Shown: piece after piece, positions 1-9,186 of the stretch
How positions within the stretch are numbered: the first letter of the stretch is position 1
Layout: every line of letters begins with the position of its first letter
Origin: a virus
DNA: 64,000 nucleotides
Reading direction: 5' to 3' (one strand)
Virus record (IMG/VR): IMGVR_UViG_3300050343_000255
Span: 42,358 to 106,357 of that record
Position numbers and translations under genes: made by a program
Notes under the pieces: model-generated
Databases searched by the model: none
What the model was told of the DNA's origin: nothing
What the model saw: the letters and a program-made list of their open reading frames with translations, nothing else

Positions 1-98
1 GTGTGGCAACGTCCTAAGAATGATCCTCTATTAGAAGATCACATTCTTAATGACTTCTAACTACACTTTAATTAAGTAAATACATATTTTTAAGTTAA

Positions 99-335
99 AT
101 GAAATCCACAGATATCAAGATTGGTCAACGAGTATTTGTTGCGCCACATAATCGAATTGCATTAGTCGTAGGAAAGCCAGAGTATTACACTCCTCGTGCT
201 CGTCTCGTTCGGATCAAGTTTGAAAATAGTACTAGGTTTGAATACAAACTCAACCACCAACTAGACCTACTGCCTACTGAGTACCAATACAAAGCACATG
301 GTGGTAGTCACGTAAAGCCTGCTGGTGATTTTTGA
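99..335 (+). CDS. Small hypothetical protein, possible KOW/SH3-like fold
   Basis: IKIGQRVFV...ALVVG...VRIKF pattern; stop overlaps the next start (TGATG). Confidence 0.5.
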   Translation: MKSTDIKIGQRVFVAPHNRIALVVGKPEYYTPRARLVRIKFENSTRFEYKLNHQLDLLPTEYQYKAHGGSHVKPAGDF

Positions 336-1135
336 TGCCTGAATCACAGCCCAGTAAAAAAGTAGGTGGGCACACTTACGGTCGAAGAAATTTAAACATG
401 TCTAATACCGCAGAAGAGGGAGCTCTCTGTCTCTATAGCGGTCACTCCATAGGCAGGTTTAGCTCTTCTTCTATGCGCTATGACAGTCACCAAGCTTGTG
501 TGCGCTGTGTAGCTGCTGCAAGAGAAGGGCGCATGTCTTTCAATATTGATCGGCTTCTCAAAAAAGAACGTAAGCGTGCACTGAAATTCTGGTCAAAAGT
601 TGATATTGGTCAACCTGATGACTGCTGGGAATGGCTTGGCTATAGGTGCAAAACAAATGGCATGCCTCAATTTCCATGGAGGCGTCCAGGAATTAGTACC
701 AGTACACAGCACCACCCACAAAGAGTTGCTATGTGGTTTACCTGGGGAGACCTTGGCTATACCGGAGTCAAGTCAACGTGTGGGAACAAGTACTGCTGTA
801 ACCCATTTCATCTTATACCCCAAAAGATTGGGGTTTTTGTTGACTGCGATTCCTATCTAGAAAGTTTTGAGTTGGCTTGTGAACTTCACACCTTAAAGCA
901 GCAAATTGCGGAATACAATTTAGAAGAAGCAATGAAAGAACAAGAGAAACTAATTAGTCAACAAGAACTTGAAGACCGATCAAATCTATTGTTCGAACCT
1001 GATTCAAATTTCTCAGACAGGTTCCAAGCTGTTGTGGAAGATATGTTGAGTGGGAGACACCCAAGTCAACAAATCAAAATCCTAATAGTCTTTTTCAAGA
1101 TGACGAGGAAAATACCACAGAAAACTTTTAATTAA
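335..1135 (+). CDS. HNH-endonuclease-like protein with N-terminal Cys motif and acidic C-terminus; catalytic His appears substituted
   Basis: FWSKVD...DDCWEWLG...HPQRVA...STCGNKYCCNPFHL resembles phage HNH_3 proteins (usually H-x-C-D-N-x-x-C-x-N-P-x-H-L). Confidence 0.6.
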   Translation: MPESQPSKKVGGHTYGRRNLNMSNTAEEGALCLYSGHSIGRFSSSSMRYDSHQACVRCVAAAREGRMSFNIDRLLKKERKRALKFWSKVDIGQPDDCWEWLGYRCKTNGMPQFPWRRPGISTSTQHHPQRVAMWFTWGDLGYTGVKSTCGNKYCCNPFHLIPQKIGVFVDCDSYLESFELACELHTLKQQIAEYNLEEAMKEQEKLISQQELEDRSNLLFEPDSNFSDRFQAVVEDMLSGRHPSQQIKILIVFFKMTRKIPQKTFN

Positions 1136-1163
1136 TCTATCCTTAGTAAAGAGTCATAAGAAT

Positions 1164-1586
1164 ATGTCAAGACGAAGCGATCTTATTCAACAACTAATTT
1201 CATCCAAGAAATTTGGTCCTGAAAAGAAACAAGAGCAGGAGTTCCTCATGGCTACTGCAGAGTTGATTCTTTCTGACCTGATTAATATTGCACTTACTGG
1301 TGTTGAAAAAAGGGGAACTGGCTCATTAGTCATCAACCTTATGAATGACTCTACGACGTTCATGTGGCCTGAATCAATTGAGTTTGATTTGAAAACAGCT
1401 GAGCGAGAAGAAGACGAGGATATCGTTGACTTTCTACGTGATCTGCTTGAAGAAATCGAAACCAATGACTGGTCAAAAAATGTATTAATAACATTAATTA
1501 GCGATGCTGGAACAAGAACATTTGCAGTCGAAGCAGGTCGGTGCCAAGAGGGCCTTAGAGCGCTCGCAGAAGAATTTATCGGATAA
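1164..1586 (+). CDS. Hypothetical protein
   Basis: 140-aa ATG ORF in the plus-strand run. Confidence 0.7.
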   Translation: MSRRSDLIQQLISSKKFGPEKKQEQEFLMATAELILSDLINIALTGVEKRGTGSLVINLMNDSTTFMWPESIEFDLKTAEREEDEDIVDFLRDLLEEIETNDWSKNVLITLISDAGTRTFAVEAGRCQEGLRALAEEFIG

Positions 1587-2172
1587 GCTTGCCGCCAAAG
1601 GTCTAAAGCTACCGTTATATCCGACACCTCAGATCATTGATCGAGCTCGTGCTGTCATGGGCAGTATCGACTTTGATCCAACTTCAGATCCTGTTCAACA
1701 GGTTCTTGTTGATGCAACATCCGTACCAAGCATTGAAGTCAATCCTTTGCAGGAGCATTGGCACGGAAACGTATGGGTAGCACCTAAAGGAGCTGTACGT
1801 GATTGCCGGATTTGGCTTAATAAAACACTGAGTGAATATCGCAATGGATATATTAATAGTTTTGTTTTATTCAGCAGTGCTTCAGAATTACTACGGGCTG
1901 CACCTGTTGTATGGGATTATCCAATCTGTATTCCGTTTAAACGGGTAAAGCAACTGCGTGCCACAGCTACTGGCTTTGAGCCAGTTTCTCCTTCTACTTG
2001 GAACCTAATCATATATGGTCCACCAATTAATCAAGCGCTAACTGATATTGACAAAGTCTCTCTGTTTTACGACAGCTTTAGAGACCTTGGTCGTGTCATC
2101 TATAGTGAATATGCAGGAGATGGTTGGAATAAAGATCTTGAGTACTACGAAGAAAACAAAGGTAGTATTTGA
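1504..2172 (+). CDS. Phage Dam-type N6-adenine methyltransferase homologue, degenerate
   Basis: YPTPQIIDRARAVMGSIDFDPTSD and HWHGNVWV match the family; the NPPY motif reads APKG. Confidence 0.6.
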   Translation: MLEQEHLQSKQVGAKRALERSQKNLSDKLAAKGLKLPLYPTPQIIDRARAVMGSIDFDPTSDPVQQVLVDATSVPSIEVNPLQEHWHGNVWVAPKGAVRDCRIWLNKTLSEYRNGYINSFVLFSSASELLRAAPVVWDYPICIPFKRVKQLRATATGFEPVSPSTWNLIIYGPPINQALTDIDKVSLFYDSFRDLGRVIYSEYAGDGWNKDLEYYEENKGSI

Positions 2173-2585
2173 TGTCAAAACATATTGCACCGGACTGTCT
2201 GTTAACTCTTCCTTCTAACGATCGGGTTCATCCTTGTCGTTTGATTTTAAAAGATGGCACACTAATGTGGAAACATGCACTCTTCTATGAAGATAGTCTT
2301 GCATGTATCCCAAAATCCGTTGCACATGAGAGGCACATAATAAAAACTGCTCAGCGCCTAGAGGAACTGAACAGTTGGATATCACAAGGATTAGAGCCTT
2401 GGAACTCTTTAACTATCAAAGGGTGGTATCAGCCTTTCAATCCTGAACTAAGTGAAGGTATATCTGTATGCTTTACACACAGTTCACATGAGCTTGATTT
2501 TACGTTTGAGAATTTATTGCCACACATCCAAGATCATGAGAAGCTTGAACTAAGAAAAAATTATCTATTCTTTCAACGCTGCTGA
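2172..2585 (+). CDS. Hypothetical protein, possibly a degenerate peptidase M15 homologue
   Basis: W..AL...IP...IIKTAQRLEEL...IKGWYQP..N resembles M15_3; the SxHxxGxAxD zinc motif is absent. Confidence 0.4.
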   Translation: MSKHIAPDCLLTLPSNDRVHPCRLILKDGTLMWKHALFYEDSLACIPKSVAHERHIIKTAQRLEELNSWISQGLEPWNSLTIKGWYQPFNPELSEGISVCFTHSSHELDFTFENLLPHIQDHEKLELRKNYLFFQRC

Positions 2586-2592
2586 CAACAAG

Positions 2593-2608
2593 GCCGCATA
2601 TCTGCGGC
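2593..2608. terminator. 16-bp palindrome between convergent genes; possible bidirectional terminator
   Basis: GCCGC-ATATCT-GCGGC, the same geometry as the early-region palindromes. Confidence 0.5.
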
Positions 2609-2609
2609 T

Positions 2610-2927
2610 TTAATAGTTTAACGAATCAATCAACCTAGTAAGATACCATTGTGCTTTTTCAGCATCTTCTTTACTGTTTGACTTATGCCACATACGCAAT
2701 AAATACTTCAAGACTTGCGCTTGCAAAAATCCTTGCTTACAGCTCGGAGCTTTATCAATTGCATCTTCAATTACTTCAATTGCTTCATGGCGTCCTGCCG
2801 TGTAATGAGCAGGGCTATTTACCATGTCAGTTGTAACGGGCTCTGTATATTCCCAAGTACTGAACTTGCTATTACTAAACCCAGAAACATAATCACCGTT
2901 GCTAAAAAAGCTATTCTTTTCGTTCAT
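2610..2927 (-). CDS. DUF3310 family protein (T7 gp1.7 nucleotide-kinase-like)
   Basis: DMVNSPAHYT.G..EAIEVI...KYL.R...K...EDAEKAQWYL. Confidence 0.85.
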   Translation of the reverse strand: MNEKNSFFSNGDYVSGFSNSKFSTWEYTEPVTTDMVNSPAHYTAGRHEAIEVIEDAIDKAPSCKQGFLQAQVLKYLLRMWHKSNSKEDAEKAQWYLTRLIDSLNY

Positions 2928-2991
2928 GAGTTTGTCTCGCGTATTGATTACTCCTTACTTAATATAGGAACTGGAATCATATATTGTGGAT

Positions 2992-3552
2992 ATGCCGAGC
3001 CCTAAAGGTGACCCGACTTACATCAAAAATAAAGAACGATTCTACATGAACGTTGCAAAGGCAATTAGCCAAGCATCAACACATCCAAAATGTCCAGGTG
3101 GATGTATTATTGTTCGTGATAGAGAGATTATTGGAGATGGTAGAAGCATACTGACGGATAGCATGGTTGAAATCGATTGCATTTCATATGCAGTCGCAGC
3201 TGCAGCCAAGGCAGGAACTCCTGCCATTGGTGGTGTGATCTATACAACAAGATATCCATTTTCAACTTCTGTGTTTCAAGCACACATGATGGGTATCAAA
3301 AAGATTGTTCTACTTGCCCATGACTGGGAACCGTATTACAAAGAAGAGTTCAGACGTTCTGCACGTCTAGCTCGTGAATTGAACATTGCTATTGAGCCAA
3401 TGTTTGAAGACGAAGACCCAAGATTTACTAAGAATTCAAATGACAGAGATATTGACGAAACTCTCTTCCCGGAAGCAAACCCGTTTGCGCCAGATGAATA
3501 TGATCCAAACAATGCAACACATACCTTCGATGAAAACACAACTCCTATTTGA
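2992..3552 (+). CDS. dCMP/cytidine deaminase-fold protein lacking zinc ligands
   Basis: YMNVAKAISQAS...GCIIVRD...IYTT.YP...GIKKIV; HAE reads DCI and PCxxC reads PFSTS. Confidence 0.7.
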   Translation: MPSPKGDPTYIKNKERFYMNVAKAISQASTHPKCPGGCIIVRDREIIGDGRSILTDSMVEIDCISYAVAAAAKAGTPAIGGVIYTTRYPFSTSVFQAHMMGIKKIVLLAHDWEPYYKEEFRRSARLARELNIAIEPMFEDEDPRFTKNSNDRDIDETLFPEANPFAPDEYDPNNATHTFDENTTPI

Positions 3553-4054
3553 CCTTGAATCCACAGGCTTACTTCGACGTGGCTCCACAATTCACTGCAT
3601 GGTTATGCGTGATGCTGTTGATAGCAGCACTCATGTCTTTGATCACAAGCCTGAACGTGCATTGATTCAAGGCATCAAACAACTAGAAGATGCAGATGTA
3701 ATCATCGGGCACAACATTATTGGATACGATATCCCATTGCTCAAAGAGCAGTATCCAGACTTTGAACCTAAGGGTCAAGCAATGGATACCCTTGTGCTTA
3801 GTCGTTTGTTCTATCCACACATCATGGATAGAGATCACGAACGTCGTCCACTTGGCATGCCTCAACGTTTGTATGGCAGGCACTCACTGGAAGCGTGGGG
3901 TTACAGGTTGAAGTGCTTCAAAGGTGACTTTGGTAAGCATGATGGCAACTGGGCTGTCTATACACCTGAAATGCTGGATTACTGCATCCAAGACACCGAG
4001 GTCACCCTCAAACTATGGCAACTTATGCAACGGAGAATGAACGACTATGCCTGA
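3530..4054 (+). CDS. Family A DNA polymerase, stand-alone 3'-5' exonuclease subunit
   Basis: ExoI FDLES, ExoII GHNIIGYD, HSLEAWGYRL, ExoIII YCIQD (T7 gp5-like). Confidence 0.9.
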   Translation: MKTQLLFDLESTGLLRRGSTIHCMVMRDAVDSSTHVFDHKPERALIQGIKQLEDADVIIGHNIIGYDIPLLKEQYPDFEPKGQAMDTLVLSRLFYPHIMDRDHERRPLGMPQRLYGRHSLEAWGYRLKCFKGDFGKHDGNWAVYTPEMLDYCIQDTEVTLKLWQLMQRRMNDYA

Positions 4055-4304
4055 TAAAAATGCACCACTAACTTCTGAAGAAATTACAGAAGCAGCAGAT
4101 ATCTTTTTTCCGCTCTTTAATATTGTCGATGAGCGTATGCCTGAAACAGCATCTACAGAAGATACGTTGAAAGTTATGGAAAACATTGCTAAGTTGGCAC
4201 AGAAGGAACGAATTAAAAAACGAGAAGAAGCTGTAAAGCTTAAGTTCGGATTTAATAAAACTACTGATTCAGATGAGGATACTGTCAAAGATGAAAGTGA
4301 TTGA
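4047..4304 (+). CDS. Hypothetical protein between the two polymerase halves
   Basis: 85 aa; overlaps both neighbours. Confidence 0.65.
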   Translation: MPDKNAPLTSEEITEAADIFFPLFNIVDERMPETASTEDTLKVMENIAKLAQKERIKKREEAVKLKFGFNKTTDSDEDTVKDESD

Positions 4305-5598
4305 TTCTGTCAAACTTGAAATGCGTATGGCCAGCATTATGGCCCAACAGGAAGCAAGCGGATTCCGTTTCGATCTAACCGCAGCTGAGCGAGTTCGTGG
4401 TGAGTTTGAACAAGAGATGTCTGATCTACAAGGTCAAATTTCTAAACGTTTTATTTATGTTCCTGGCAAGGTCTACACACCTAAGCGTTCAAATAAAACC
4501 AAGGGTTTTTTCGCTGGTGCTCCGATGACAAAGCTGCTCGACTTCAATGCAACGAGCCGTCAGCATATTGCGTGGGCTCTACAGAACTTCAGCAAAGCCA
4601 GGTTTATCAAGGTTACTGAGACCGGTAAGCCTAAAGTTGATGAAGCAACTCTGTCTGAGCTGCGAGATACCGCACTGCAGCAAGGGAATACCAAGCTGCA
4701 TGAGGAGTGTGAGATGTTTATCCGCCTGCTGACTTTGCAGAAGTGGATGGGACAGTTGTCGGAAGGATCTAACTCATGGTTCAACACCATTGAGGATGAC
4801 GGATGCATCCACCACAGCTGTTCACTGGCAACGATCAGCGGTAGAAATGCGCATCGGGGTCCCAACTTGGGGCAGGTCGTAAGTGCACCATGGGCACGTC
4901 AGCTATTCATTCCACACCCTGGCATGGTCATGGTGGGGGCTGACTTAGAAGGACTCGAACTTCGGGCGCTTGGGCACTACCTAGCCGTCTTCGATGAGGG
5001 CGCTTTTGCTGATGTTGTGGTCAACGGTGACATTCATACGCAGAATGCAGAGCGAGTTGGATGTACCAGATCTGAGGTCAAGTCGCTGGTCTATGGGTTC
5101 ATTTATGGGGCTGGCGATGTGAAGCTGGGTCATATTTTGCATCCCGAACTTAGTGACGCTCAGAAGAAATCTCTTGGCACAGAACTACGACGTAAGTTTC
5201 TTGATGCGATCCCTGGTCTAGAACCCCTGGTTGATGCAGTCAAAGCAAAAGTTCGTAGTGCTGGTCAGCTCAAAGCACTAGATGGTCGTCCAATCTTCTG
5301 CCGAGCAGAACACAGTTCACTCAACTTCCTGCTTCAGTCATGTGGTGCGATTTTGAGTAAGCGGTGGTGTGTCATCGGTCAAGACTTACTTGATCAAGCA
5401 GGGCTTGCCTATGACAACGACTACACCCGTTGTGCCTACGTCCATGATGAAGTTCAACTGTCTGTTGTACCAGCAGAGGTAGACCGTGTCAAAGAGCTCC
5501 TAGTGGCTGCTGCTCCTCAAGCAGGGCGTTACTACAACTTCCGTGTTCCGATTACAGCTGCCGCTGATCACGGAGACAACTGGGCAGCTACCCACTAA
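4291..5598 (+). CDS. polA: Family A DNA polymerase, polymerase subunit (T7-like, Tyr at the E. coli 762-equivalent position)
   Basis: Motif A GADLEGLELR, motif B RSEVKSLVYGFIYG, motif C YVHDE. Confidence 0.95.
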   Translation: MKVIDSVKLEMRMASIMAQQEASGFRFDLTAAERVRGEFEQEMSDLQGQISKRFIYVPGKVYTPKRSNKTKGFFAGAPMTKLLDFNATSRQHIAWALQNFSKARFIKVTETGKPKVDEATLSELRDTALQQGNTKLHEECEMFIRLLTLQKWMGQLSEGSNSWFNTIEDDGCIHHSCSLATISGRNAHRGPNLGQVVSAPWARQLFIPHPGMVMVGADLEGLELRALGHYLAVFDEGAFADVVVNGDIHTQNAERVGCTRSEVKSLVYGFIYGAGDVKLGHILHPELSDAQKKSLGTELRRKFLDAIPGLEPLVDAVKAKVRSAGQLKALDGRPIFCRAEHSSLNFLLQSCGAILSKRWCVIGQDLLDQAGLAYDNDYTRCAYVHDEVQLSVVPAEVDRVKELLVAAAPQAGRYYNFRVPITAAADHGDNWAATH

Positions 5599-5606
5599 TA
5601 AATACC

Positions 5607-5795
5607 ATGGATATATCTACACAACGTTGTATTGTCGCTCAAAACATTTCTAATCTACTGGAATGGACTAAAGGCTCTGTTCGAATTAAACAATTGGTTT
5701 ATAGCGATGGTAAGTCGCACACTGAACTTATATTTGATATGGACTCTGATATGTATGATTTCTTTAAGGATCGAGTTGATGTAATAACATCTTGA
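5607..5795 (+). CDS. Hypothetical protein
   Basis: ATG ORF right after pol. Confidence 0.5.
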   Translation: MDISTQRCIVAQNISNLLEWTKGSVRIKQLVYSDGKSHTELIFDMDSDMYDFFKDRVDVITS

Positions 5796-5812
5796 TTGAT
5801 ACAATAGTCTCT

Positions 5813-8507: not shown

Positions 8508-8843
8508 TTAAACAAATTGTAAGCCATCATCTTCTAGATCATCATCTTCCCAACCTTCATCCATAATATCTGTTGGCATCTCTTCTGAGTTATCAACTGA
8601 TAATTCCAACAAATCACAGAAGGTTTCTTCTGAGATGATTTCAGGTAACCCTGCCTGTTGCTCGTCAATTTTAAAAACAATGCCACTAGCCATTAGTGTT
8701 TGTTGAACTCCATTCTTTTGCTCCATCCGTGACTTAAGCAGGCGCAAGGCCGTTTTTTCCAGAGCAGGTCTGCTCATTCGAGTTACTTCGTATCTTGCTC
8801 GTGTGAGAGCAAACCGTTGTTCGATGGTAAGTTGGTTGTTCAT
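8508..8843 (-). CDS. nblA: NblA-like phycobilisome degradation protein with acidic extension
   Basis: LTIEQRFAL...VTRMSR.AL...LLK..M.QKN matches the NblA pattern LSLEQQF...V..MSREQ. Confidence 0.6.
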   Translation of the reverse strand: MNNQLTIEQRFALTRARYEVTRMSRPALEKTALRLLKSRMEQKNGVQQTLMASGIVFKIDEQQAGLPEIISEETFCDLLELSVDNSEEMPTDIMDEGWEDDDLEDDGLQFV

Positions 8844-9186
8844 CTAGTTCTTCCTCAATAAATCTCTTGTTTGTAATCCATTCTTCAATTAATTCTTGTG
8901 CAACTTCGTTATAGAAGGTTTGTCTTTTAAACCATACTAACCAAGGTTCTGTACCTTTTGAGTGATTACACTCAAGACATGCAGGAAGAAGATTACTGCG
9001 TAAACTTGAACCTCCATTGGCTCGTGGTTTGATGTGATCTAACGTTGTTGCTCGTTTAGATCTGCAGTAGCCACAAAGGCCACCCCAACCATATTTAATT
9101 GATTTTTTAAATCTGCGCTTGGCACTTTGTTTTGATAAACAAGTGAGGTCAAACAGTAGGTCCGACCAGTCTTCAGCAATACCCAT
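8734..9186 (-). CDS. HNH endonuclease
   Basis: CGYC...LDHIKPRANGG...NLLPACLECNHSKG. Confidence 0.9.
   Translation of the reverse strand: MGIAEDWSDLLFDLTCLSKQSAKRRFKKSIKYGWGGLCGYCRSKRATTLDHIKPRANGGSSLRSNLLPACLECNHSKGTEPWLVWFKRQTFYNEVAQELIEEWITNKRFIEEELDEQPTYHRTTVCSHTSKIRSNSNEQTCSGKNGLAPA

What the first reader, a model, noticed from the sequence alone, without database searches (positions are those of the whole stretch)
335..3552. Cluster of four intact but apparently catalytically dead enzyme homologues
Seen in open ORFs of one plus-strand run: an HNH-like protein (335-1135) with Ser where the catalytic His is expected (VKSTCGN); a Dam-type MTase (1504-2172) with APKG in place of NPPY; an M15-peptidase-like protein (2172-2585) without the His/Asp zinc ligands; and a dCMP-deaminase fold (2992-3552) with HAE changed to DCI and PCxxC to PFSTS. 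These are substitutions, not indels, so sequencing error is an unlikely cause. Inference: a repurposed pseudoenzyme module, for example subunits of a replication/transcription complex, nucleotide or SAM sensors, or anti-defence decoys. The M15 assignment is the weakest.
Basis: partly seen in the sequence, partly recalled or inferred. Interest (0 to 1): 0.7.

Follow-up and report, generated by a model that had tools for sequence, protein, structure and literature searches.

The report
Four dead-enzyme genes in a cyanophage
Between the primase-helicase and DNA polymerase genes of a widespread marine cyanophage lie four well-conserved proteins built on enzyme folds (nuclease, adenine methylase, M15 peptidase, dCMP deaminase) that lack the residues those enzymes need, so they probably work as binding or accessory proteins whose function is unknown.

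Summary
The HNH-like ORF matches phage HNH families but has Ser/Thr at the catalytic His and has lost the Asn loop. The methylase-like ORF is homologous to PF05869 Dam-type methylases (hhalign 99.4%) with NPPY replaced by AP-KG. The 137-aa ORF folds confidently (pLDDT 92) into the M15A/LAS peptidase fold, apparently without the His/Asp/His zinc triad. The deaminase-like ORF aligns with T4 dCMP deaminase with HAE>DCI and PCxxC>PFSTS.

All four are syntenic in about 80 related marine viral contigs and under purifying selection (dN/dS 0.05-0.18; the methylase-like gene is as constrained as the polymerase). They are not pseudogenes or sequencing errors.

The phage belongs to the uncultured marine lineage related to Synechococcus phage S-EIV1. 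The 'single module' reading is only partly supported. The M15-like and deaminase-like genes are confined to the marine clade. No test of physical association was possible.

The scan found the same island before on another genome (e1-5850482), with the same verdict. Function is inferred, not shown.

The parts
99..335 (+). orf0: small basic protein (78 aa, pI 9.9) ending in G-D-F. Its stop overlaps the start of the next gene (TGATG).
   Evidence: no family hit
335..1135 (+). HNH-like (His-Me finger, HNH_3 type) protein. It has an N-terminal Cys/His cluster and retains the structural zinc ligands. The catalytic His is Ser/Thr and the Asn loop is lost. In relatives the C-terminus is acidic and ends in F; in this copy it is frameshifted from about 1065.
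1164..1586 (+). orfB: acidic 140-aa protein of no known family, homologous to the gene just upstream of the methylase-like gene in S-EIVl-type phages. It overlaps the next gene by 83 nt.
1504..2172 (+). Dam (PF05869)-like protein. The motif-I-like IDxDPxS is conserved; motif IV NPPY is replaced by AP-KG. It is the most conserved gene of the block.
2172..2585 (+). M15A/LAS-fold protein without the canonical His-x6-Asp...His zinc triad. Its start overlaps the stop of the methylase-like gene (TGATG).
2610..2927 (-). DUF3310 protein (PHROG label: 'nucleotide kinase' domain), present in both clades.
2992..3552 (+). Cytidine/dCMP-deaminase-fold protein with HAE>DCI and PCxxC>PFSTS and an acidic C-terminal extension of about 45 aa.
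3386..4054 (+). 3'-5' exonuclease part of the split family-A DNA polymerase. The likely start is the ATG near 3530, just before the Exo I motif.
4047..4304 (+). 85-aa acidic protein (phrog_2171) between the two polymerase parts.
4273..5598 (+). Polymerase part of the split T7-type family-A DNA polymerase.

Best explanation
The block encodes conserved, selected proteins descended from four enzyme families: HNH_3 His-Me nuclease, PF05869 Dam methylase, M15A zinc peptidase and zinc dCMP/cytidine deaminase. All four have lost the residues needed for the ancestral chemistry.

They most likely act as non-catalytic binding or accessory proteins of the replication and nucleotide-metabolism module of S-EIV1-like marine cyanophages, each with its own history rather than as one co-evolved unit.

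Inferred roles:
- HNH-like protein: keeps its zinc-stabilised DNA-binding finger and binds DNA without cutting. Its acidic C-terminus ending in Phe is of the same kind as the ends of the primase-helicase (NDF) and orf0 (GDF). It may dock on the T7-type polymerase as T7 gp4 and gp2.5 do.
- orfB + methylase-like pair: translationally coupled, the oldest and most constrained element. It keeps the motif-I-like pocket, so it may bind SAM, a nucleotide or DNA, but it cannot transfer methyl to an exocyclic amine.
- Deaminase-like protein: probably a zinc-free pyrimidine-nucleotide binder. It lies in the genome stretch where the freshwater clade has an active dCTP deaminase.
- M15A-like protein: a peptidase fold reused as a binding scaffold.

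Shown: fold or family descent, motif loss, synteny, purifying selection. Inferred: every statement about function.
For: Family descent and motif loss: HNH; Dam; M15A; deaminase.

Conservation: synteny in about 80 loci, with median amino-acid identity of 90.5% for MT-like against 80% for PolA. dN/dS is 0.05 for MT-like, 0.08-0.09 for HNH-like, 0.11 for deaminase-like and 0.17-0.18 for M15-like, against 0.05-0.065 for PolA.

Age of the losses: the freshwater S-EIVl clade has FPP[N] in place of NPPY (F, P, P invariant) and Arg at the HNH His column.

The orfB/up1 + MT-like pair is conserved in both clades. In the overlap at 1504-1586 all three codon positions are nearly invariant.

Context: RNR, ThyX, exonuclease and primase-helicase lie upstream; split PolA lies downstream.

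The record holds no other Dam, dCMP-deaminase, dCTP-deaminase or M15A gene. It does hold a separate HNH-family ORF with strong PHROG matches at 8734-9186.

[DE]-F C-termini: 8 of 208 ORFs have them, and 7 of those lie in the early/replication block. The HNH-like protein of relatives ends in ENF.
Against: No binding, ligand or interaction was tested.

Invariant polar residues could form new active or metal sites: D64, C65, H112 and E115 in the deaminase-like protein; H53, H56, H119, H123 and E124 in the M15-like protein; K95 in the methylase-like loop.

The very strong constraint on the methylase-like protein would also fit an enzyme.

The zinc-ligand mapping in the M15-like protein rests on a low-probability hhalign anchor plus hand alignment, not on superposed coordinates.

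The methylase-like fold could not be modelled (pLDDT 43).

Not all HNH-like orthologues end in an aromatic residue.
Confidence: 0.5

Rival explanations
1. Some or all of these are neofunctionalised enzymes. They kept the fold and ligand pocket but catalyse a different reaction with new residues. Examples: a non-amino methyltransfer or other SAM-dependent reaction by the Dam-like protein, a hydrolase using the new His/Glu cluster of the M15-like protein, or a metal-independent or Asp/Cys/His-based reaction on pyrimidine nucleotides by the deaminase-like protein.
For: The replacement residues are themselves invariant: K95-G96; D64, H112, E115; H56, H119, H123, E124. MT-like dN/dS is 0.05, equal to the polymerase. 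PF05869-positive relatives already show a graded series at motif IV: NPPY, NHPF, NPPG, NAPG.
Against: No known member of these four families works without the lost residues (established knowledge of (D/N/S)PP(Y/F/W) amino-methylases, H/C-x-E...PCxxC deaminases, the H-x6-D...H LAS peptidases and the His-Me finger). The first and last motif-IV positions differ between the two clades (APKG against FPPN), which argues against a conserved new catalytic loop there.
Confidence: 0.25
2. The first reader's module: the four proteins (with orfB) assemble into one complex, possibly with the polymerase or primase-helicase, as structural or regulatory subunits.
For: Gene order is fixed in the marine clade. 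Start/stop overlaps link orf0 to HNH-like, orfB to MT-like, and MT-like to M15-like. The genes lie between primase-helicase and polymerase.
Against: The components have different phyletic ranges and are separable. S-EIVl-type phages have HNH-like and orfB + MT-like genes but no detectable M15-like or deaminase-like gene, and they hold the first two about 10 kb apart.
Confidence: 0.12
3. Anti-defence or host-takeover decoys. For example, a dead methylase that masks sites or titrates a methylation-sensing defence, a dead deaminase that poisons the host's oligomeric deaminase, or a dead nuclease that blocks a host nuclease site.
For: Inactive enzyme mimics are a known phage strategy (general knowledge). 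The proteins lie in an early-type + strand block.
Against: No PADLOC match. Counter-defence genes usually evolve fast and vary in presence, whereas these are among the most conserved genes of the lineage.
Confidence: 0.08
4. Artefact: decaying pseudogenes, sequencing errors or chance resemblance.
For: One real lesion exists: the 1-nt deletion near 1065 in this copy of the HNH-like gene.
Against: Frames are open and motifs identical in dozens of independent contigs. dN/dS is far below 1. Profile and structural matches are significant.
Confidence: 0.02

Closest known systems
PF05869 'Dam' phage-type N6-adenine DNA methyltransferases (e.g. Vibrio phage 1.185.O gene NVP1185O_30; ParB-Dam fusions)
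   Same: Homologous over 155 columns (hhalign 99.4%). Shares the YTP...IDxDPxS region, W86, C142, R147 and the C-terminal F/G/Y columns.
   Different: Motif IV NPPY is AP-KG (FPPN in the freshwater clade). The protein has a 35-aa N-terminal helix and a C-terminal extension, does not reach the Pfam cut-off, and always follows a coupled partner gene (orfB).
HNH_3 / zf-His_Me_endon phage endonucleases (PF13392, PF05551), e.g. Corynebacterium phage StAB gp46
   Same: Shares the CWxW...TCxNxxCxNPxHL core with the Cys/Cys/Cys/His columns.
   Different: The catalytic His is Ser/Thr (Arg in S-EIVl) and the GT...N metal loop is cut by 4 residues. There is an extra N-terminal Cys/His cluster. A helical C-terminal half replaces the HTH, and the tail is acidic.
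Peptidase M15A / LAS zinc peptidases (PF08291; 1lbu DD-peptidase; Ma-LMM01 M15A protein; Hedgehog N-domain)
   Same: Same fold (Z 9.9; BFVD TM 0.65). Shares the long helix and the WY(R/Q)P strand.
   Different: The positions of the zinc His, Asp and His are Leu94, Cys/Tyr101 and Phe134/135. The loop before strand 2 is shorter. There is no profile match. The gene lies in the replication module, not the lysis module. Drosophila Hedgehog is a known LAS-fold protein without the zinc site (own knowledge).
Zinc dCMP/cytidine deaminases (PF00383; T4 Cd, S. mutans dCD 2hvv, RibD deaminase domain)
   Same: Same fold and helix/strand register. The N-terminal THP..GC(I/V)IV motif is RibD-like.
   Different: His>Asp64, Glu>Ile66, Cys>Phe92, Cys>Ser95. 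There is an added acidic tail of about 45 aa. Known inactive relatives such as ADAT3 lose the Glu but keep zinc (own knowledge); this protein loses all three canonical ligand residues (His to Asp, Cys to Phe, Cys to Ser).
Uncultured marine cyanophage lineage with split DNA polymerase and integrase (Flores-Uribe et al., bioRxiv 10.1101/325100) and Synechococcus phage S-EIV1
   Same: Split T7-type PolA, integrase, and closest isolate S-EIV1. TerL is 55% and a capsid-region protein 65% identical to S-EIVl.
   Different: A term search of that paper found no mention of methyltransferase or deaminase.

Membership tests
HNH_3 / His-Me finger endonucleases (PF13392, PF05551) | Catalytic His (general base) at the end of the first beta strand (HTCDN) | tested here: not met
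   The column is S in the window, T in most relatives and R in S-EIVl. It is H in four HNH_3-positive phage proteins.
HNH_3 / His-Me finger endonucleases (PF13392, PF05551) | Metal-binding Asn/His in the GT...N loop | tested here: not met
   There is a 4-residue gap at GT.., and the aligned position is variable (K/N).
HNH_3 / His-Me finger endonucleases (PF13392, PF05551) | Structural zinc ligands (Cys of CWxW, TC, C-x-NP, H of HL) | tested here: met
   C98, C150, C155 and H160 are invariant in 25 orthologues and in the canonical set. Metal binding itself was not tested.
HNH_3 / His-Me finger endonucleases (PF13392, PF05551) | Significant profile match | tested here: inconclusive
   PHROG 826 gives E 2.5e-11, but there is no Pfam or NCBIfam hit.
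PF05869 Dam N6-adenine methyltransferases | Homology to the family | tested here: met
   hhalign gives 99.4%, E 2.8e-21, against five phage proteins that pass the Pfam cut-off. The ORF itself gets no Pfam hit. In the Atlas cluster 21% of members carry PF05869.
PF05869 Dam N6-adenine methyltransferases | Motif IV (D/N/S)PP(Y/F/W) | tested here: not met
   The motif is AP-KG in the marine clade and FPP[N] in the freshwater clade.
PF05869 Dam N6-adenine methyltransferases | Motif-I-like cofactor region (IDxDPxS) | tested here: met
   I55, D56, D58, P59 and T60 are invariant in the marine clade (S61 nearly so). I55 and D58 are invariant across all clades. SAM binding was not testable here.
PF05869 Dam N6-adenine methyltransferases | Class-I methyltransferase fold | tested here: inconclusive
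   The AlphaFold model failed (pLDDT 43). No PDB sequence relative was found.
Peptidase M15A / LAS (PF08291) | Hedgehog/DD-peptidase fold | tested here: met
   Model pLDDT 91.8. 1lbu scores Z 9.9, with many M15/LAS rows below it. BFVD M15A proteins score TM 0.65, probability 1.0.
Peptidase M15A / LAS (PF08291) | Zinc triad His-x6-Asp ... His | tested here: not met
   Anchored on WYRP = W86-Y87-Q-P89 and the invariant G97, the positions fall on L94, C/Y101 and F134/F135. The register after the anchor is my hand alignment, not a coordinate superposition.
Peptidase M15A / LAS (PF08291) | Profile match to the family | tested here: not met
   No Pfam hit for any of the 32 members or in the genome. 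The family has only 66 representatives at 50% identity.
Zinc cytidine/dCMP deaminases (PF00383) | CDA fold / profile match | tested here: met
   PF00383 scores 22-23 bits, just under the cut-off of 25. The profile hits RibD at 5e-6 and 2hvv at 1.7e-3. The Atlas model scores TM 0.65/0.81 against a dCMP deaminase cluster.
Zinc cytidine/dCMP deaminases (PF00383) | H(C)-A-E: zinc His/Cys and catalytic Glu | tested here: not met
   In the ungapped alignment with T4 Cd these are D64-C65-I66. D64 is invariant.
Zinc cytidine/dCMP deaminases (PF00383) | PCxxC zinc ligands | tested here: not met
   The motif is P91-F92-S-T-S95, with P91 and F92 invariant.

The most novel reading that the evidence does not exclude
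The orfB + Dam-like pair is a previously unrecognised core factor of S-EIV1-type cyanophage DNA replication or its control. It is as constrained as the polymerase and is conserved, with a dead motif IV, across the freshwater and marine clades. The HNH-like protein is one of a set of replication-module proteins that use a shared [DE]-Phe C-terminus to dock on the T7-type polymerase. On this reading the phage has rebuilt part of its replisome from inactivated enzyme folds.
Probability: 0.15. Interest if true: 0.75.

Novelty: new variant of a known kind. Interest (0 to 1): 0.55.

Why it matters
Pseudoenzymes are well documented in eukaryotes but have seldom been mapped in phages. Here four of them, plus an unknown partner protein, lie in the replication module of an abundant, globally distributed marine cyanophage lineage. 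One is as conserved as the DNA polymerase.

If they are binders or subunits, they point to unknown parts of a T7-type replisome or of nucleotide-pool control in cyanophages. If they are enzymes, they define new chemistries on old folds.

They also serve as a warning for annotation. Fold- or profile-based pipelines would label them methylase, deaminase, peptidase and endonuclease, and would credit the phage with activities it probably lacks.

Tried and rejected
- AlphaFold on the methylase-like family (A1) gave an unusable model (pLDDT 43).
No interaction test was made.
- A second homologous-protein run with the mixed alignment A7 was swamped by near-identical marine relatives.
- The genome-contig scan gave only phage contigs binned into unrelated MAGs, plus ParB-Dam fusions. 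It gave no host clue.
- PDB sequence searches gave nothing for the methylase-like, HNH-like, M15-like or orfB profiles. The NRC2a hit to the HNH-like C-terminal helices looks like coiled-coil noise.
- tblastn of the deaminase-like protein found no cultured-phage relative, even at E 10.
- NCBIfam gave only sub-threshold ComEB/RibD hits. PADLOC gave nothing.
- Foldseek against PDB gave only weak Hedgehog rows (E 0.12). The VIA-align and BFVD searches settled the fold.
- Metatranscriptome contigs from four studies cover the whole block. Contigs in RNA libraries cannot exclude DNA carry-over, so I do not count this as proof of transcription.
- No T7-like RNA polymerase (PF00940; the control did not ring) and no PF00436 SSB were found. 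Neither absence is conclusive.
- I considered a T7-lysozyme-like role (regulation of a phage RNA polymerase) for the M15-like protein. I dropped it for lack of a phage RNAP gene.


Full report
WHAT IS THERE

The window is bases 42358-106357 of a 106-kb IMG/VR viral record. On the + strand, from 99 to 5598, the genes run in this order:
- orf0
- an HNH-like gene (335-1135)
- orfB (1164-1586)
- a Dam-like gene (1504-2172)
- a 137-aa gene (2172-2585)
- DUF3310, on the minus strand
- a deaminase-like gene (2992-3552)
- a split family-A DNA polymerase: exonuclease part, an 85-aa protein, then the polymerase part

Upstream lie ribonucleotide reductase, ThyX, an exonuclease and a 748-aa primase-helicase.

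The phage shares terminase (55%), a capsid-region protein (65%), portal-region proteins, ThyX and polymerase with Synechococcus phage S-EIVl. It fits the uncultured marine cyanophage lineage with split polymerase and integrase described in bioRxiv 10.1101/325100, whose closest isolate is S-EIV1. A term search of that paper found no mention of methyltransferase or deaminase.

THE FOUR FOLDS AND THEIR LOST MOTIFS

HNH-like gene. PHROG HNH families match residues 61-163 (best E 2.5e-11). I aligned it with four phage endonucleases that carry HNH_3 and zf-His_Me_endon.
- The core CW.W...TC.N..C.NP.HL is shared, and C98, C150, C155 and H160 are invariant.
- The catalytic His column is Ser here, Thr in most relatives and Arg in S-EIVl.
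- The following GT...N loop is four residues shorter.

Dam-like gene. It has no Pfam hit of its own. tblastn finds phage methylases that pass the PF05869 cut-off. hhalign of 24 orthologues against these gives 99.4% probability over 155 columns and aligns NPPYG with AP-KG.
- The motif-I-like IDxDPxS is conserved.
- ParB-Dam fusions recovered from bacterial contigs keep NPPY or NPPW.

137-aa gene.
- The AlphaFold model has pLDDT 91.8.
- An all-against-representatives structural search puts the zinc DD-peptidase 1lbu first (Z 9.9, rmsd 2.6, 103 residues). Below it come Hedgehog, VldE, LdcB, Ply500, LysB4, VanXY, MepA, VanY, VanX and the T5 endolysin.
- The best viral models are 'Peptidase M15A C-terminal' proteins (TM 0.65).
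- hhalign against the M15A protein of Microcystis phage Ma-LMM01 is weak (E 0.004, probability 8.5%). It anchors the long helix and the strand WYRP on W86-Y87-Q-P89.
- Carrying that register on by hand, the zinc His, Asp and His fall on Leu94, Cys/Tyr101 and Phe134/135. This last step is inference.

Deaminase-like gene.
- PF00383 scores just under its cut-off.
- The family profile finds RibD (5e-6) and dCMP deaminases.
- The ESM Atlas model resembles a dCMP deaminase cluster.
- hhalign with T4 Cd gives an ungapped alignment with HAE on D64-C65-I66 and PCPDC on P91-F92-S-T-S95.

ARE THE GENES ALIVE?

A scan of IMG/VR returned 250 relatives of the Dam-like protein, of which 80 loci were kept. 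All ten genes of the block are found in the same order in them. Median amino-acid identity is:
- Dam-like: 90.5%
- HNH-like: 80.5%
- deaminase-like: 80%
- M15-like: 66%
- polymerase: 80%

Pairwise Nei-Gojobori dN/dS (dS is near saturation, so the values are approximate) is:
- Dam-like: 0.05
- HNH-like: 0.08-0.09
- deaminase-like: 0.11
- M15-like: 0.17-0.18
- orfB: 0.15
- polymerase: 0.05-0.065

The substituted motif residues are conserved or invariant. These genes are neither pseudogenes nor sequencing errors.

There is one real lesion. This copy of the HNH-like gene lacks one A near 1063-1067, so its last 21 codons differ from all relatives. The conserved tail can still be read in the neighbouring frame.

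IS IT ONE MODULE?

A second IMG/VR scan, using the S-EIVl Dam-like protein, gave 45 freshwater-type loci. In these the gene order is up2, up1, Dam-like, an intact dCTP deaminase (PF22769, E 1.8e-24), then DUF3310 further on.
- Their Dam-like protein has FPP[N] at motif IV, with F, P and P invariant. The loss of the catalytic Asn/Asp therefore predates the split of the two clades.
- up1 is a homologue of orfB along its whole length.
- In both clades the pair is joined start to stop. In the marine clade the 83-nt overlap has almost no variation at any codon position, as expected for dual coding.
- S-EIVl also has the HNH-like gene, with Arg at the His column, downstream of its primase and about 10 kb from the Dam-like gene.
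- The M15-like and deaminase-like genes were found only in the marine clade. The M15-like family has only 66 representatives at 50% identity among 1.8 billion proteins.
- The marine record holds no dCTP deaminase, no other PF00383 or PF05869 gene and no PF08291 gene.

So the block is a mosaic of two old elements and two later ones.

HOW IT MOST LIKELY WORKS (INFERENCE)

I think these are non-catalytic descendants of enzymes that kept their binding surfaces.

The best lead concerns the HNH-like protein. In relatives it ends in an acidic stretch closed by Phe (...EENTTENF). The primase-helicase ends in NDF in all relatives examined (50+), and orf0 ends in GDF. Of the 8 ORFs among 208 in the record that end in [DE][FYW], 7 lie in the early/replication block. 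In phage T7 the acidic, Phe-terminated tails of gp4 and gp2.5 dock on the polymerase (own knowledge), and this phage has a T7-type polymerase. A zinc-stabilised but catalytically dead His-Me finger tethered to the replisome is therefore a concrete, testable model.

The orfB + Dam-like pair is the oldest and most constrained element. It keeps the cofactor-side motif but not the catalytic loop, which suggests SAM, nucleotide or DNA binding without amino-methylation.

The deaminase-like protein has lost all three canonical zinc-ligand residues and the catalytic Glu, and it carries an acidic tail. It lies in the stretch of the genome where the sister clade has a working dCTP deaminase, next to ThyX, RNR and a DUF3310 'nucleotide kinase' domain. 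A role as a pyrimidine-nucleotide binder or regulator is the simplest guess.

The main rival is neofunctionalised catalysis, because invariant polar clusters replace the lost sites.

COMPARISON AND NOVELTY

Each protein fails at least one defining catalytic feature of its parent family, so none should be filed as a member enzyme. Each does clearly descend from that family or share its fold.

Inactive enzyme homologues are a known phenomenon (METTL14, ADAT3, zinc-less Hedgehog; own knowledge). A literature search for phage pseudoenzymes found nothing relevant.

The scan had already noted the same island on another genome, and a follow-up there reached the same verdict (e1-5850482). My tests were made independently of it.

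I rate this a new variant of a known kind, of moderate interest.

Noticed in passing
window 1060-1135: This copy of the HNH-like gene lacks one A (about 1063-1067) compared with all near relatives. Its last 21 codons are therefore out of frame, and the conserved tail ...NQNPNSLFQDDEENTTENF can be read in the neighbouring frame. This is either an assembly error or a real strain variant.
   Followed up: yes
window 1-335 and upstream (genome 25045-42692); HNH-like tail in L002-L011: Proteins of the replication block end in [DE]-Phe/Tyr. The primase-helicase ends in NDF in all relatives examined, orf0 ends in GDF, two small upstream ORFs end in DEF and GDF, and the HNH-like protein of relatives ends in ENF. 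7 of the record's 8 such ORFs lie in this block. This may be a shared docking motif like the T7 gp4/gp2.5 tails.
   Followed up: partly
whole record (G000 1-25000 against 81900-106357; window 39500-64000): The first 25 kb of the 106-kb record matches its last 24.4 kb at only 87-98% identity, and the terminase is present twice. The record looks like a wrap-around assembly of two related strains. The unit length is about 82 kb, close to the 79 kb of S-EIVl.
   Followed up: partly
window 1504-1586: In the 83-nt overlap of orfB and the Dam-like gene, all three codon positions are nearly invariant across about 70 sequences. This is consistent with dual coding or an embedded signal.
   Followed up: partly
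L104-L148 (freshwater S-EIVl-type loci): Directly after the Dam-like gene, the freshwater clade has an intact dCTP deaminase. The marine clade has the M15-like and zinc-less deaminase-like genes there and no dCTP deaminase anywhere in the record.
   Followed up: partly
genome 34210-35308 (upstream of the window): Two adjacent short ORFs (169 and 193 aa) each match parts of a ribonucleotide reductase large subunit (phrog_367). The RNR alpha gene may be split or interrupted here.
   Followed up: no
window 5588-5796: Contigs from RNA libraries of two studies replace 207 bases (the small ORF 5607-5795) with the same 21 letters. This is a presence/absence polymorphism of that ORF among strains.
   Followed up: no
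window 8734-9186 (-): A separate ORF matches many PHROG HNH endonuclease families (best E 3.3e-23) and is 48% identical to the annotated S-EIVl HNH nuclease. Its catalytic residues were not checked. If it is active, the phage has a working HNH nuclease besides the dead one.
   Followed up: partly
L082, L083, L085, L086 (cultured phage Dam-type genes): PF05869-positive phage 'methylases' themselves show non-canonical motif IV variants (NHPF, NPPG, CNAPG). Some annotated phage Dam genes may also be inactive or atypical.
   Followed up: no
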